The notes below the pieces were generated by a model. The model saw only the letters and a list, made by a program, of their open reading frames with translations. It had not been told where the DNA came from and did no database searches. Positions 47,554 through 50,035 of a DNA stretch of 64,000 nt are shown here, in pieces. Made by a program: the position numbers and the translations under genes. This DNA is from a virus (lineage: Duplodnaviria; Caudoviricetes). Each line of letters begins with the position of its first letter. Position 1 is the first letter of the stretch. Location of the stretch: IMG/VR virus record IMGVR_UViG_3300037439_000217, positions 1,779-65,778 of that record. One strand, written 5' to 3'.

Positions 47554-48288
47554 GTGACCAAGCTCAACCAGCTCCTGGCGATCGAGAAGGGCGCGCGGCA
47601 GCATCACACCGCGGCCGTGACCGACGCCTACCATTCGCTGCAGAAGGGCGCGCTGCTCGACGGCATCTCCCGGACCTACCGGCCCAAGGACGACGAGGGC
47701 GATCGGCTGCCGCCCGAGTCGAAGCGCGTGCAGCTGACCGTTCGGGACGCGCTGGCCGGTGTCCGCGAGCCGTGGGGTCGCCTGATGGATGTCAACCTGG
47801 AGAAGGACGACACCAACACGCGCGCCCGCGCCGACGTGGTCGTGGACGGCGAGACGCTGCTTCAGGACGTGCCGGCGACGTACCTGCTCTTCCTGGAGAA
47901 GCAGCTCACCGACCTGCACACGCTGGTCTCGAAGCTGCCGCGGCTGGACCCGGCCGAGACCTGGCACTGGGATCCGAACGCCGGCGCGTACGCGACCGAG
48001 TCCGTCGAAACCCACCGCTCGGTCAAGGTGCCGCGGGCGCACGTCCTCTACGAGGCGACGCGCGAGCACCCCGCGCAGGTCCGGGCGTACGAGGAGACCG
48101 AGGTCGTCGGGTACTGGACCCAGGTCAAGTTCTCCGGTGCGGTCCCGGCCGACGAGGCCGACGCCATGCTGGACCGCGTGCGTCGGCTGCGGGACGCCGT
48201 GAAGCAGGCGCGTGAGCAGGCGAACCTCGCCGAGGTCGCTCCGCATCGCGGCACCGGTGCCACGATTCTCGACTACGTCCTCGGCTGA
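47554..48288 (+). CDS. conserved bacterial hypothetical protein (MTKLNQLLAIEK family)
   Basis: KLNQLLAIEKG, VPATYLLFLEKQL, LYEAT..HPAQV and AREQAN; recognised as a widespread uncharacterised family. Confidence 0.7.
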   Translation: MTKLNQLLAIEKGARQHHTAAVTDAYHSLQKGALLDGISRTYRPKDDEGDRLPPESKRVQLTVRDALAGVREPWGRLMDVNLEKDDTNTRARADVVVDGETLLQDVPATYLLFLEKQLTDLHTLVSKLPRLDPAETWHWDPNAGAYATESVETHRSVKVPRAHVLYEATREHPAQVRAYEETEVVGYWTQVKFSGAVPADEADAMLDRVRRLRDAVKQAREQANLAEVAPHRGTGATILDYVLG

Positions 48289-48371: not shown

Positions 48372-48581
48372 ATGAGAGATGAGGATCTAATGATCAAGCG
48401 TCTGATCGCCGCCACCGCACTCGTGCTCGTCACCTTCGGTGGCGCCGCACCCATCGCCGCCGCCGACCCAGTCTTCGGTCCCGGAGCGGGACAAGGAGGC
48501 GGCAACAACGAGCCTCATGAGAACTCTGGCACGAGGTGTCACCCGCCGGGCCAGACCAGCGAATCGCCCGAATGCAAGTAG
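48372..48581 (+). CDS. small secreted peptide
   Basis: Signal peptide ending AAA|DP; two Cys in the mature part. Confidence 0.55.
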   Translation: MRDEDLMIKRLIAATALVLVTFGGAAPIAAADPVFGPGAGQGGGNNEPHENSGTRCHPPGQTSESPECK

Positions 48582-48783
48582 GGCGTCACAAGACCACAAC
48601 TCCATAGAGATCACGCGACGCAAAGCTCCCACCGCGTTCTCGATCGGCGAGGGCACCGGCCCCGTCGGGTCTTCGTGCCCCCCACGATGACCTGGCGCTT
48701 TCGCCGGCTCCTTTTCTTCCCCCCGAAGTGAGTGAGTTACACGAGGCGCGGTGGGCCAAGGCTCCCCACAGGGGAGAGGGCAC

Positions 48784-48926
48784 AAGCTGAAGCTGAGTCT
48801 TAACCTGACGCGTGAGATGACAGTGCGGGTTCGATCCCCGCCCCCGGCTCCACGTGCCGGGGTAGCCCAACACGGTAGAGGCACATTCCCGCACTCAAGG
48901 TGAGATCTCTCGCCCCAGTCTGAGCC
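48784..48926 (+). ncRNA. circularly permuted tRNA-like RNA 1 (YrlA-like)
   Basis: T arm GCGGG-TTCGATC-CCCGC (48825-48841), acceptor hairpin CCCCGGC-TCCACGT-GCCGGGG (48842-48862), then D arm TAGCCCAACACGGTAGAGGC; the flanks form an interrupted helix. Ends are approximate. Confidence 0.7.
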
Positions 48927-48936
48927 TGATACGTTC

Positions 48937-49077
48937 GGTCGCCGGATCAACCGGTCGCGATCGCGTTTCCGAAGACGTAGGTTCGAATCCTTCCGGCGCC
49001 TCCACGTGGCGCCGTGGTGCAGCGGCAGCACGTCGGGACTAAGATCATTAGACGCGACCTTAAACGCCGTCGGCGAC
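48937..49077 (+). ncRNA. circularly permuted tRNA-like RNA 2 (YrlA-like)
   Basis: T arm GTAGG-TTCGAAT-CCTTC (48977-48993), acceptor hairpin CGGCGCC-TCCACGT-GGCGCCG (48994-49014), D arm GTGC-AGCGGCA-GCAC; closing helices TCCGA/TCGGG, GGTCGCG/CGCGACC and GTCGCCG/CGGCGAC. Confidence 0.75.
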
Positions 49078-49089
49078 GTCGGGACGACC

Positions 49090-49183
49090 TACACGGTTTG
49101 CCTAGCTTGGCCTAAGGCGCAACCCTTCAGAGGTTGTGGCCGGCTCGCGCCGGCCATCCCGGGTTCGAATCCCGGTCGTGTGA
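49090..49183 (+). tRNA. type II tRNA with UCA anticodon (opal suppressor / allo-tRNA-like)
   Basis: D arm GCCT-AGCTTGGCCTA-AGGC, anticodon arm CAACC-CTTCAGA-GGTTG, 8-bp variable stem, T arm CCGGG-TTCGAAT-CCCGG, acceptor TACACGG/TCGTGTG, A73, no encoded CCA. Confidence 0.7.
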
Positions 49184-49300: not shown

Positions 49301-50035
49301 ATGTACCAGCCCCGACATCGCAGGACGGTTCGCCGTCACACCTGGGGCCGCCGCGCGGCACAGTCCGCGCTCGGCGGCCTCGTGCTCGTCGTGGGACTCG
49401 CAACGGTCGCGAACGCGCACACCAACTACACGGTGAGGCCGGGCGACACGCTCTCCGAGATCGCCGCCGCGAACGGGACCACGTGGCAGCAGGTCTACGA
49501 GCTGAACAAGGACATCATCGACGATCCGAACCTGATCTTCCCGGACCAGGTGCTGGTGACCAGCTTGGAGGGGTCCGAGCCCGCGCGCTCCGGTTCGAAG
49601 GCGGATCGCTCGGGCGGAAGCAGGCAGCAGGTCGACTCGATCGCTGCGGCGCGCGGCGGCATCACGCGCCCTGCCACCGGCTCGGTGACGAGCCACTACG
49701 GGTACCGCACTCACCCGATCACCGGCGTGTACAAGCTGCACACCGGCACGGACTTCTCATACGGCAACGGCAACGCGTACGCCGCGGCGGCCGGGCGCGT
49801 CTCGATCGAGCACCCCGAGTGGGCCGGCAACCTGGTGATCGTCGATCACGGTGGCGGGGTCCAGACGCGGTACGCGCACCTGGCCAGCGTGTCCGTGTCA
49901 AGCGGACAGCAGGTCGACTCCGGCGATGTCGTGGGACGGATCGGTGAGCGCGGACTCGCGACCGGACCGCACCTGCACTTCGAGGTCCTGCTGAGCGGCG
50001 ACTTCAGCGACCCGCTCGCGTGGCTCGGCGGGTAG
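49301..50035 (+). CDS. secreted LysM plus M23 metallo-endopeptidase
   Basis: Signal/TM segment, YTVRPGDTLSEIA...IFPDQVL (LysM), HTGTDF (HxxxD), TRYAHL and GPHLHFEV (HxH). Confidence 0.9.
   Translation: MYQPRHRRTVRRHTWGRRAAQSALGGLVLVVGLATVANAHTNYTVRPGDTLSEIAAANGTTWQQVYELNKDIIDDPNLIFPDQVLVTSLEGSEPARSGSKADRSGGSRQQVDSIAAARGGITRPATGSVTSHYGYRTHPITGVYKLHTGTDFSYGNGNAYAAAAGRVSIEHPEWAGNLVIVDHGGGVQTRYAHLASVSVSSGQQVDSGDVVGRIGERGLATGPHLHFEVLLSGDFSDPLAWLGG

What the first reader, a model, noticed from the sequence alone, without database searches (positions are those of the whole stretch)
48784..49077. Two tandem circularly permuted tRNA mimics (T arm, closed acceptor stem, D arm) sharing a UCCACGU loop
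Seen: in both modules the T arm comes first, followed by a perfect 7-bp acceptor stem closed by the identical loop TCCACGT (discriminator + CCA + CGT), then a canonical D arm. The anticodon arm is replaced by a long interrupted helix formed from the flanks. The two stems differ in sequence yet both pair perfectly, which supports selection on structure. Established: bacterial YrlA Y RNAs have this permuted architecture. Inference: these are phage-encoded tRNA decoys, with CCA retained in the loop so that one cut could expose an aminoacylatable end. They could absorb anticodon nucleases or tRNA-sensing defences, or hijack Ro60/PNPase.
Basis: partly seen in the sequence, partly recalled or inferred. 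Interest (0 to 1): 0.9.

Follow-up and report, generated by a model that had tools for sequence, protein, structure and literature searches.

The report
Twin tRNA-mimic RNA beside DUF7873
The two back-to-front tRNA look-alikes are real and belong to a conserved folded RNA that follows one unknown protein gene (DUF7873) in many phages and bacteria, so it resembles the Ro60/Y-RNA system but is not encoded beside Ro60, and I found no paper on it.

Summary
Observation confirmed. Two modules lie at 48786-48925 and 48933-49086. Each has a T arm, a perfect 7-bp acceptor stem closed by UCCACGU, a D arm, and a long interrupted helix in place of the anticodon arm.

They are not chance. The same tandem pair, about 148 nt apart, follows a DUF7873 gene (window 47554-48288) in 76 of 80 bacterial loci from several phyla, in 11 IMG/VR phage loci, and in cultured Gordonia, Klebsiella, Ralstonia and cyanobacterial phages. 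On 40 sequences, 90% of cells pair (about 40% when slid) and 67 of 82 pairs show compensatory changes.

The architecture is YrlA-like, but Rfam YrlA scores are sub-threshold and no Ro60/TROVE gene is in this record. Five complete phage genomes and two bacterial genomes carry the cassette without Ro60. DUF7873 and Ro60 do co-occur genome-wide in Actinomycetes (5/7 vs 13/144), so host Ro60 use is not excluded.

The anticodon-nuclease decoy idea is unlikely: there is no anticodon loop, and the cassette is chromosomal in bacteria. Function, expression and protein binding are untested. This scan found the same cassette earlier in at least 36 other genomes. I found no paper on it.

The parts
47554..48288 (+). 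DUF7873 protein gene (244 aa), the conserved upstream partner of the RNA
   Evidence: Pfam PF25283 full length, E 1e-100. It is 52% identical to Gordonia phage GodonK gp152, which sits directly before the same RNA pair. The gene-RNA linkage was seen in 14 of 17 phage records and 76 of 80 bacterial loci.
48372..48581 (+). Small ORF (69 aa, signal-peptide-like) inserted between the DUF7873 gene and the RNA. Not part of the conserved cassette.
   Evidence: ORF list. In relatives the RNA starts about 90 nt after the DUF7873 stop codon.
48692..48717 (+). Terminator-like hairpin plus a T-rich tail upstream of the RNA locus
   Evidence: Consensus scan: one site found against 0.7 expected, so this is weak.
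48769..48783 (+). Short 5' hairpin (CUCCCC-ACA-GGGGAG) preceding module 1. It corresponds to the hairpin that precedes AAGCUGA in relatives.
   Evidence: Alignment A3. Local hairpins at this place covary among loci when read from the alignment. Helix 2 is only 72% paired, so support is moderate.
48786..48925 (+). Module 1: a tRNA-like domain closed by a flank helix (48786-48808 with 48901-48925)
   Evidence: Window coordinates of each pair are. The flank helices are 79-88% paired across 40 sequences (helices 3-5). CM R1 scores 73.7 bits, but this sequence was in the training set.
48825..48841 (+). Module 1 T arm
   Evidence: 99.5% of cells paired, and 4 of 5 pairs show double changes (helix 6). 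G53, T54, Psi55, C56, A58 and C61 are invariant, partly because of how the rows were selected.
48842..48862 (+). Module 1 acceptor stem (7 bp) closed by the loop UCCACGU
   Evidence: All 7 pairs show compensatory changes among relatives (helix 7). The rows were selected for 7/7 pairing.
48865..48882 (+). Module 1 D arm (GCCC...GGUAGAGGC)
   Evidence: Nearly invariant in 40 relatives (helix 8). U8, A14 and G19 are invariant; G18 is G in 51 of 54.
48933..49086 (+). Module 2: a tRNA-like domain on a long basal stem. An internal loop carries AUCAAC (family consensus AUCGAC) opposite CUUAAACG.
   Evidence: Rfam YrlA full-length match 48954-49061, 29.9 bits. Basal helices 10, 12 and 13 have double changes at all 22 pairs.
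48977..48993 (+). Module 2 T arm (one U-U mismatch)
   Evidence: Helix 14.
48994..49014 (+). Module 2 acceptor stem (7 bp) closed by the loop UCCACGU
   Evidence: Helix 15 has double changes at all 7 pairs.
49017..49031 (+). Module 2 D arm. It has G15, matched by C48 upstream of the T arm.
   Evidence: The Levitt pair is A15:U48 in module 1 and G15:C48 in module 2. Across the family it is A:U in 47, G:C in 5 and mismatched in 2.
49090..49183 (+). tRNA with a UCA anticodon and a long variable arm, the last element of the RNA cluster
   Evidence: ARAGORN and Rfam tRNA, 33.4 bits. Treated in earlier finding e1-5873495.

Best explanation
The two modules are the two tRNA-like domains of a conserved structured non-coding RNA locus of about 300-340 nt. 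The locus belongs to a widespread cassette: a DUF7873 gene followed on the same strand by this RNA. The cassette is found in phages, often in or beside their tRNA arrays, and in bacterial chromosomes.

Each domain keeps the tRNA elbow and core (T loop, D loop GG, U8, A14, Levitt pair) and a 7-bp acceptor stem. The acceptor end is closed by a loop that starts with the discriminator and C74, here the full UCCA. The anticodon arm is replaced by a long bulged stem with a conserved internal loop. This is the build of a YrlA-type Y RNA.

Most likely mechanism (inferred):
- The RNA is a scaffold that presents two tRNA-shaped heads to proteins that recognise tRNA shape, such as RNase P, the CCA-adding enzyme and modification enzymes.
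- Its stems bind a dedicated protein. DUF7873 is the prime candidate, and host Ro60 is a possible second partner.
- The 7-bp stem, and here U at -1 and G at +1 (in bacterial copies -1 is U mainly in module 2), make RNase P cleavage in the loop plausible. Cleavage would give a two-piece molecule with a CCA 3' end, as shown for M. smegmatis YrlA.

Shown: the structure, its conservation, and the gene linkage.
Inferred: expression, processing, protein binding and any role in infection.
For: Structure:
- Both modules are present.
- RNAalifold on 40 loci gives 47 pairs, 41 with compensatory changes.
- For an 82-pair structure, 90% of cells pair against 39-48% when slid. The covariation score is 0.453 against about 0.10, and 0 of 500 shuffles reach it.
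- The basal stems of module 2 were not used to select the rows, and they covary at every pair.
- The tRNA core nucleotides are invariant (G18 nearly so) and the Levitt pair covaries.

Linkage:
- The window's DUF7873 gene lies upstream.
- A DUF7873 gene is present in 14 of 17 phage records that hold such modules, and adjacent wherever positions could be compared.
- The tandem pair follows DUF7873 in 76 of 80 bacterial loci of Actinomycetota, Chloroflexota, Myxococcota, Armatimonadota, Planctomycetota, Acidobacteriota and Deinococcales.
- The pair is also seen in Gordonia GodonK and Keelan, Klebsiella KpLz-2_45, Ralstonia RSL1 and Pseudanabaena PA-SR01.
- No other gene is conserved around the cassette in 68 bacterial loci.

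Ro60:
- No TROVE gene in this record, in GodonK or in four IMG/VR records rated 100% complete, or in two whole bacterial genomes that carry the cassette.
- In two other bacterial chromosomes the TROVE genes lie 0.6 Mb or more from the cassette.

Processing:
- Precedent (PMC4201824).
- The loop begins with N-C in 46/57 (module 1) and 57/57 (module 2) bacterial copies. In module 2, -1 is U in 43/57 and +1 is G in 49/57.
Against: - No transcript, end-mapping, binding or processing datum exists for this RNA.
- DUF7873 is mildly acidic (median pI 6.0).
- Its confident AlphaFold model (pLDDT 92) matches no known RNA-binding or enzymatic fold. Binding rests on synteny alone.
- In this window the gene and the RNA are separated by about 500 nt holding another small ORF and a terminator-like hairpin.
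- Three Herpetosiphon loci have DUF7873 without the RNA.
- The Vibrio and Rhizobium phage loci give only a weak or a single match.
- A later check recorded in this scan (e1-2703945) priced the 'Ro60-independent RNP' reading at 22/100. One pattern-based census there found the RNA next to only 17.8% of DUF7873 genes.
- Rows used for covariation were selected for perfect acceptor stems, which inflates those two helices.
Confidence: 0.5

Rival explanations
1. They are ordinary YrlA/YrlB-type Y RNAs that work with Ro60 (Rsr). The phage supplies only the RNAs and uses the host's Ro60, and through it PNPase. DUF7873 is a neighbour with a separate or accessory job.
For: - The architecture is the same as YrlA, and Rfam YrlA gives the best non-tRNA matches (29.9 and 22.7 bits; GodonK 38.2 bits).
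- A Ro60-adjacent tandem pair (L093) scores in the same sub-threshold range (40.9 and 32.8 bits).
- Two phage contigs carry a TROVE gene 2.4-4.2 kb upstream of the DUF7873 cassette on the same strand.
- In 151 sampled Actinomycetes genomes, TROVE is present in 5 of 7 with DUF7873 against 13 of 144 without (odds ratio 25, Fisher p 2.5e-4).
- A phage Ro60 with two Y-like RNAs that recruits host PNPase has been published (PMC12135203).
Against: - No TROVE gene in this 65.8-kb record, which is rated 87% complete, in GodonK, or in four IMG/VR records with the cassette rated 100% complete.
- None within 6 kb of 80 bacterial cassettes by tblastn.
- Nocardia CA-145437, Kutzneria CA-103260 and one sampled genome searched with the same model (G071) have the cassette and no TROVE. 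For the seventh DUF7873-positive sampled genome (G165) no TROVE match was listed.
- The internal-loop motif is AUCGAC in the family and AUCAAC here, not the CGAA motif of Ro60 sites.
Confidence: 0.2
2. They are phage tRNA decoys. The CCA-bearing acceptor mimics soak up host defence enzymes that attack or sense tRNA, protecting the real tRNA pool.
For: - In phages the cassette lies inside or next to tRNA arrays.
- Both loops here encode the full NCCA.
- Acceptor-end mimicry could in principle titrate enzymes that act on the tRNA 3' end. This is inference from general knowledge and was not tested.
Against: - There is no anticodon stem-loop, so anticodon nucleases have no target.
- The same cassette is chromosomal in several bacterial phyla with variable, non-phage neighbours.
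- The closed loop hides the 3' end unless the RNA is processed.
- A conserved dedicated protein gene and long covarying stems are more than a decoy needs.
- DUF7873 matches no PADLOC model.
Confidence: 0.1
3. They are cis-acting processing or stability elements. The tRNA-shaped structures direct RNase P cleavage to define the 3' end of the DUF7873 mRNA, or the 5' end of the downstream tRNA transcript, as mascRNA does for MALAT1. They have no role of their own in trans.
For: - The RNA always lies immediately downstream of DUF7873 on the same strand.
- In phages it is followed by tRNAs.
- The 7-bp stems with N-C and, in module 2, U at -1 fit RNase P substrates.
Against: - In this window another ORF and a terminator-like hairpin separate the gene from the RNA.
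- Two domains, long basal stems that covary at every pair, and conserved internal-loop sequences are not needed for a cleavage signal.
- The D arm and Levitt pair are kept.
Confidence: 0.08
4. They are circularly permuted genes for a working tRNA or a two-piece tmRNA-like molecule. After excision of the loop the molecule would be charged and used on the ribosome.
For: - The permuted order with an encoded CCA resembles permuted tmRNA genes.
- GodonK module 1 gives a weak match to Rfam tmRNA_permuted (19.3 bits, E 0.078) and has G3:U70 with A73.
Against: - No anticodon arm and no tag reading frame.
- ARAGORN, which detects permuted tmRNA, finds none.
- G3:U70 occurs in 1 of 40 module 1 copies and not in this window (pair 155/172).
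- A full D stem is present, unlike tmRNA.
Confidence: 0.03
5. Chance or decay: remnants of two adjacent tRNA genes, whose junction merely looks like a closed acceptor stem.
For: Tightly packed phage tRNA genes are often joined by CCA-CAU/CGU-G, the same letters as these loops. About 100 of 129 pattern hits in IMG/VR were such junctions.
Against: - At true junctions the two acceptor strands do not pair (5 or fewer of 7). Here both pair 7/7.
- No upstream 5' half or downstream 3' half of a tRNA exists.
- The element is conserved with covariation across phyla.
- There were no matches in 100 shuffles.
Confidence: 0.01

Closest known systems
YrlA (Y RNA-like A; Rfam RF02553), the Ro60/Rsr-bound Y RNA of bacteria and mycobacteriophages (Chen et al. 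2014, PMC4201824)
   Same: - T arm, stem-loop in the place of the acceptor stem, and D arm in that permuted order.
- tRNA tertiary nucleotides and Levitt-pair covariation are kept.
- The anticodon arm is replaced by a long 5'/3' stem with an internal loop.
- Often two RNAs in tandem (YrlA and YrlB).
- Present in phages.
   Different: - Not encoded beside Ro60. It is linked instead to a DUF7873 gene.
- Scores are far below the Rfam gathering score.
- The internal-loop motif is AUCGAC (here AUCAAC) rather than GNCGAA/CGAA.
- Both heads are full tRNA-like domains at a fixed spacing of about 148 nt.
Mycobacterium smegmatis YrlA/YrlB (PMC4201824, section read)
   Same: - A 7-bp acceptor-like stem.
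- Tandem RNAs from one precursor.
- The loop starts like a tRNA 3' end.
- RNase P cuts before G+1 and CCA is completed on the 5' half. This is the precedent for the 'one cut exposes CCA' idea.
   Different: - It lies directly upstream of rsr and is bound by Rsr.
- CCA is completed after transcription, whereas this phage encodes the full UCCA in both loops.
Thermus phage phiLo Ro60 with Yrl1/Yrl2 (PMC12135203)
   Same: Two phage-encoded Y-like RNAs in tandem that, according to the paper, recruit host PNPase. This shows that phages use such RNAs.
   Different: - The phage encodes its own Ro60.
- The RNAs were recognised by a CGAA bulge. tRNA is mentioned only twice in that paper.
- No DUF7873 link was reported in what I read.
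Two-piece (circularly permuted) tmRNA genes (Rfam RF04321)
   Same: The gene order is T arm, acceptor 3' strand, CCA, an excised segment, then the acceptor 5' strand.
   Different: - No tag frame, pseudoknots or alanine identity.
- A true D stem is present.
- Not detected by ARAGORN.
Allo-tRNAs and polycistrons of irregular tRNAs (Mukai et al. 2017, PMC5389517)
   Same: Clusters of non-canonical tRNA-shaped RNAs, some in phages. This is relevant to the tRNA(UCA) that ends this cluster.
   Different: Those RNAs keep the normal order and an anticodon arm. The terms 'permuted' and 'Y RNA' do not occur in the paper.

Membership tests
YrlA (Rfam RF02553; Chen et al. 2014) | tRNA-like domain in the order T arm, closed 'acceptor' stem-loop, D arm | tested here: met
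   Both modules qualify.
YrlA (Rfam RF02553; Chen et al. 2014) | Conserved tRNA tertiary nucleotides and a covarying Levitt pair (G15:C48 or A15:U48) | tested here: met
   U8, A14, G19, G53 and C61 are invariant and G18 is G in 51 of 54. The Levitt pair is A:U in 47, G:C in 5 and mismatched in 2. In the window, module 1 has A:U and module 2 has G:C.
YrlA (Rfam RF02553; Chen et al. 2014) | 5' and 3' ends form a long stem with an internal loop | tested here: met
   Helices 9-13 of module 2 covary strongly. Helices 3-5 of module 1 are weaker, at 79-88% paired.
YrlA (Rfam RF02553; Chen et al. 2014) | Ro60-binding motif GNCGAAN0-1G / CGAA in the 5' strand of that stem | tested here: inconclusive
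   The family consensus at the internal loop is AUCGAC. The window has AUCAAC. This is a near-match only, and binding cannot be read from sequence.
YrlA (Rfam RF02553; Chen et al. 2014) | Score at or above the Rfam gathering score (69 bits) | tested here: not met
   29.9 and 22.7 bits. Eleven bacterial cassette loci also give no hit at the gathering score. A Ro60-adjacent control pair also fails (40.9 and 32.8 bits), so this test has little power.
YrlA (Rfam RF02553; Chen et al. 2014) | Encoded within about 4 kb of a Ro60/TROVE gene on the same strand | tested here: not met
   No TROVE match in the 65.8-kb record at E <= 1. The record is rated 87% complete, so a gene on the missing part cannot be excluded.
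YrlA (Rfam RF02553; Chen et al. 2014) | Bound by Ro60/Rsr; carries Psi55 and dihydrouridine; cut by RNase P | not testable with these tools
   Needs immunoprecipitation, modification mapping and cleavage assays.
   In the window the gap is about 500 nt rather than about 90 nt.
   152 nt between T loops. Relatives are 143-157 nt apart.
   Alignment A3. The window has the D arm, the AAGCUGA...UGAGCC flanks, AUCAAC and CUUAAACG.
Canonical or circularly permuted tRNA gene | Anticodon stem-loop with a 7-nt loop | tested here: not met
   ARAGORN finds only the tRNA at 49090-49183. The consensus structure has a long stem instead.
Two-piece tmRNA | G3:U70 alanine identity, tag reading frame, pseudoknots | tested here: not met
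   The 3:70 pair is C:G in both window modules. No tmRNA was found by ARAGORN.

The most novel reading that the evidence does not exclude
DUF7873 and the double tRNA-mimic RNA form a self-contained, horizontally mobile ribonucleoprotein that does not need Ro60. RNase P opens both acceptor loops, giving two-piece, CCA-ended (possibly aminoacylated) tRNA-shaped heads on a protein-bound scaffold. Phages carry the particle to control or tap the host's tRNA-processing or aminoacyl-tRNA machinery during infection.
Probability: 0.2. Interest if true: 0.9.

Novelty: new variant of a known kind. Interest (0 to 1): 0.72.

Why it matters
tRNA-shaped Y RNAs have so far been understood as partners of Ro60. 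Here the same RNA design travels with a different, highly conserved protein: DUF7873 is 50-60% identical between phages and bacteria of different phyla.

The cassette is found in several bacterial phyla and in phages of Gordonia, Arthrobacter, Klebsiella, Ralstonia and cyanobacteria. It is often placed in phage tRNA gene clusters, and it is not annotated in the GenBank records I checked.

If the pair is a particle, it would be a second, unstudied family of tRNA-mimic RNPs. It could be tested in cultured actinophages and could be relevant to how phages manage host RNA processing. At minimum, annotators are missing a conserved RNA gene of about 300 nt.

Tried and rejected
- Single-sequence folding gave no signal: z -0.62 and -0.39.
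- Rfam at gathering scores returned only the tRNA.
- Expression: no RNA holder is listed among public runs.
- DUF7873 function:
  - No PDB sequence match.
  - No Foldseek PDB match with E <= 0.001.
  - The VIA-align wide search gave only helical-hairpin look-alikes and 3kdq at Z 8.0 with rmsd 8.0 A.
  - The ESM Atlas search gave scores of 0.80 only.
  - There were no PHROG, PADLOC or NCBIfam matches.
- A search for a third conserved gene around 68 bacterial cassettes found none.
- tblastn with two phage TROVE proteins found nothing within 6 kb of the bacterial cassettes. This has limited sensitivity and was backed by HMM searches of whole genomes.
- Papers not held: Burroughs and Aravind 2016 and the two Sim/Wolin reviews.
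- No paper mentions DUF7873 or PF25283.
- One miscounted pattern gave 0 matches and was corrected.
- Complex prediction was not used, because it cannot take RNA.
Full report
**What is in the window.** The window is most of a 65.8-kb IMG/VR virus record rated 87% complete. It is G+C-rich.

Between a small ORF that ends at 48581 and a LysM/M23 peptidase gene that starts at 49301 lies a 720-nt gap. The gap holds three RNA-like elements.

Module 1 has these parts:
- T arm 48825-48841.
- A 7-bp stem, CCCCGGC/GCCGGGG, closed by UCCACGU (48842-48862).
- D arm 48865-48882.

Module 2 has these parts:
- T arm 48977-48993.
- A 7-bp stem, CGGCGCC/GGCGCCG, closed by the same UCCACGU (48994-49014).
- D arm 49017-49031.

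A tRNA with anticodon UCA and a long variable arm follows at 49090-49183. The motif from the T loop through UCCACGUG occurs exactly twice in 64 kb and never in 100 shuffles.

Two small corrections apply. The module 2 T stem has a U-U mismatch, and the module 1 D stem carries an extra nucleotide. Folding energies of the single sequences are no better than shuffles, so thermodynamics alone proves nothing here.

**Relatives found through the RNA.** BLAST found the core of module 1 in Gordonia phages GodonK and Phendrix. Reading that locus showed the same two modules about 151 nt apart. They are unannotated, lie inside the phage tRNA array, and have loops ACCACAU and UCCACGU.

A pattern scan of IMG/VR returned two kinds of hit:
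- About 100 junctions between closely packed tRNA genes. At these the two acceptor strands do not pair.
- 28 closed stems with 7 of 7 pairs.

A looser scan showed a second closed module 144-152 nt away in 11 phage loci besides the window, counting GodonK. ARAGORN calls no tRNA over these modules. They are therefore neither tRNA genes nor tRNA junctions.

**The protein link.** The ORF upstream of the window's RNA (47554-48288) is a full-length DUF7873 (E 1e-100). It is 52% identical to the GodonK gene that directly precedes its RNA pair.

A DUF7873 gene is present in 14 of 17 phage records with such modules. It lies immediately upstream wherever coordinates could be compared.

I then started from the protein instead of the RNA:
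- DUF7873 has more than 5,600 cluster representatives.
- A scan of one genome per species returned 585 confirmed loci, and the best 80 were kept.
- A simple structural scan found both modules just after the stop codon in 57 of these, and at least one in 70.
- A covariance model of the module core (R1) raised this to 76 of 80.
- The exceptions are one short contig and three Herpetosiphon loci. In the one examined (L171) an ADP-ribosylglycohydrolase gene follows instead.

The organisms span Actinomycetota, Chloroflexota, Myxococcota, Armatimonadota, Planctomycetota, Acidobacteriota and Deinococcales.

DUF7873 also occurs in 75 cultured phage records, none from Mycobacterium. The RNA pair follows it in Gordonia Keelan, Klebsiella KpLz-2_45, Ralstonia RSL1 and Pseudanabaena PA-SR01. 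There is one copy in a Rhizobium phage and only a weak match in a Vibrio phage.

No other gene is conserved around 68 bacterial cassettes. The unit is therefore the protein gene plus the RNA.

**Structure and covariation.** An alignment of 40 loci (A3) shows a conserved RNA locus with these parts in order:
- A short 5' hairpin.
- Module 1, enclosed by a helix between CUGA-rich and UCAG-rich flanks.
- A short linker.
- Module 2 on a long basal stem, with an internal loop AUCGAC opposite CUUAAACG.
- In bacteria, a G+C-rich run (GGGGCCCCGG-type) that looks like the start of a terminator hairpin.

RNAalifold predicts 47 pairs, 41 of them with compensatory changes.

For an 82-pair structure, the counts are:
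- 90% of cells form pairs, against 39-48% when partners are slid.
- The covariation score is 0.453 against about 0.10.
- No shuffle of 500 reaches the observed values.

The rows were chosen for perfect acceptor stems, so those two helices are inflated by selection. The basal stems of module 2 were not used for selection, and all 22 pairs in helices 10, 12 and 13 show double changes. The module 1 flank helix is weaker, at 79-88% paired.

The tRNA core is kept: U8, A14, G19, G53 and C61 are invariant, and G18 is G in 51 of 54. The Levitt pair covaries: A15:U48 in 47 modules, G15:C48 in 5, mismatched in 2. The window's two modules differ by exactly this double change.

**The loops.** The shared UCCACGU loop is not a family feature. 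In protein-ascertained bacterial copies:

| Feature | Module 1 | Module 2 |
|---|---|---|
| Discriminator | A in 56/57 | U in 40/57 |
| Next base is C | 46/57 | 57/57 |
| Full NCCA | 17/57 | 21/57 |
| Position -1 | C 28, U 15, G 11, A 3 | U in 43/57 |
| Position +1 is G | 57/57 | 49/57 |

This is what a tRNA 3' end followed by a short RNase P leader looks like.

It matches the published result for M. smegmatis YrlA. That RNA has a 7-bp stem, is cut by RNase P in the loop, and has CA added to give CCA.

**Relation to Ro60.** There is no TROVE gene in the following:
- This record.
- GodonK and four IMG/VR records with the cassette rated 100% complete.
- Any of the 80 bacterial cassettes, within 6 kb.
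- The whole genomes of Nocardia CA-145437 and Kutzneria CA-103260.

In Dactylosporangium and Embleya the TROVE genes are 0.6 Mb or more from the cassette.

Three observations keep Ro60 in play:
- Two phage contigs have a TROVE gene 2.4-4.2 kb upstream of the cassette.
- In 151 sampled Actinomycetes genomes, TROVE is present in 5 of 7 with DUF7873 against 13 of 144 without (odds ratio 25, p 2.5e-4). This is not corrected for genome size or relatedness.
- A Ro60-adjacent tandem pair (L093) has the same module design.

Rfam's YrlA model scores the window modules at 29.9 and 22.7 bits against a cut-off of 69. It misses 11 bacterial cassettes at that cut-off. It also scores the Ro60-adjacent control at only 40.9 and 32.8 bits. 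Failing this cut-off therefore says little.

**The protein.** AlphaFold gives a confident model (pLDDT 92) of long helical hairpins packed on a beta sheet. No convincing match exists in the PDB by Foldseek or VIA-align, nor in the PHROGs, PADLOC or NCBIfam libraries. The protein is mildly acidic (median pI 6.0). Nothing but synteny argues that it binds the RNA.

**Reading.** The solid part is this: the finding is a member of a conserved structured RNA family with two YrlA-like tRNA mimics, genetically linked to DUF7873.

The mechanism is inferred. I think it most likely that the RNA is a scaffold. Its two tRNA-shaped heads would be recognised by tRNA-handling enzymes, and its stems would bind DUF7873 and perhaps host Ro60. 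I give that 0.5.

The rivals, in order:
- A plain Ro60-dependent Y RNA using host Ro60, 0.2.
- A decoy for defences that act on the tRNA acceptor end, 0.1. Anticodon nucleases are excluded because there is no anticodon loop, and the bacterial chromosomal distribution argues against a purely anti-defence origin.
- A cis-acting processing element, 0.08.
- A permuted tRNA or tmRNA, 0.03.
- Chance, 0.01.

**Novelty and earlier notes.** I found no paper naming DUF7873 and no Rfam family for the RNA beyond sub-threshold YrlA matches.

After reaching the DUF7873 link myself, I searched this scan's notes. The same cassette had been reported in at least 36 other genomes.

A later check there accepted the observation but priced the Ro60-independent particle at 22/100. 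It cited a pattern census that found the RNA beside only 17.8% of DUF7873 genes, and a 2016 paper by Burroughs and Aravind that I could not obtain. My 76 of 80 refers to the 80 loci most similar to the query. More distant loci (Herpetosiphon, Vibrio, Rhizobium) are less clear.

Three things are particular to this window:
- A small ORF and a terminator-like hairpin are inserted between gene and RNA.
- Both loops carry the full UCCA.
- A UCA-anticodon tRNA follows directly.

Expression could not be examined: no RNA run is listed.

Noticed in passing
window 49090-49183 (+): A tRNA with anticodon UCA (reads UGA) and a long variable arm. ARAGORN calls it tRNA-SeC and Rfam tRNA scores it at 33.4 bits. 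It directly follows module 2 and ends the RNA cluster. An earlier finding (e1-5873495) covers it.
   Followed up: partly
L098 3295-3363; L029 1705-1773; L103 2705-2774 (-); L003 3376-3451; L205 3187-3261: In other phages the cassette is also followed by unusual tRNAs. Examples are a 69-nt tRNA with a CUA anticodon (called 'Pyl'), a 70-nt 'Tyr(GUA)', and 75-76-nt 'Leu(UAG)' tRNAs that lack the long arm normal for Leu and Tyr tRNAs.
   Followed up: no
L003 3003-3062 (Gordonia phage GodonK module 1): This copy has G3:U70 and discriminator A73 with an encoded CCA, which is the alanine identity set. It is the only one of 40 module 1 copies to have it.
   Followed up: partly
window 48372-48581 and 48692-48717 (+): A 69-aa ORF with a signal-peptide-like N-terminus and a terminator-like hairpin sit between the DUF7873 gene and the RNA. 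Relatives have only about 90 nt there.
   Followed up: partly
L171 6828-7823 (Herpetosiphon aurantiacus); also L184, L185: In Herpetosiphon aurantiacus (L171), DUF7873 is followed by an ADP-ribosylglycohydrolase gene (Pfam E 2.6e-71) instead of the RNA pair. The covariance model finds no module in any of the three Herpetosiphon loci.
   Followed up: partly
L093 4666-5020 (-), with the TROVE gene immediately downstream: A different, Ro60-adjacent tandem pair of closed-acceptor modules with T loops 270 nt apart. It lies in a record rated 100% complete that has no DUF7873. This is the classical YrlA/YrlB arrangement.
   Followed up: partly
IMG/VR loci L004-L119: Many phage tRNA arrays join consecutive tRNA genes with exactly three bases, CAU or CGU, between CCA and G+1. 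These are the same letters as the loops of the closed modules.
   Followed up: no
Genomes G017-G165: DUF7873 was found in 7 of 151 sampled Actinomycetes genomes, all 7-13 Mb and single-copy. It co-occurs with TROVE far more often than expected, but where both lay on one contig or chromosome they were 68 kb or more apart.
   Followed up: partly
window 49301-50035 (+): A LysM plus peptidase M23 protein (likely a lysis or cell-wall enzyme) starts right after the RNA cluster.
   Followed up: no
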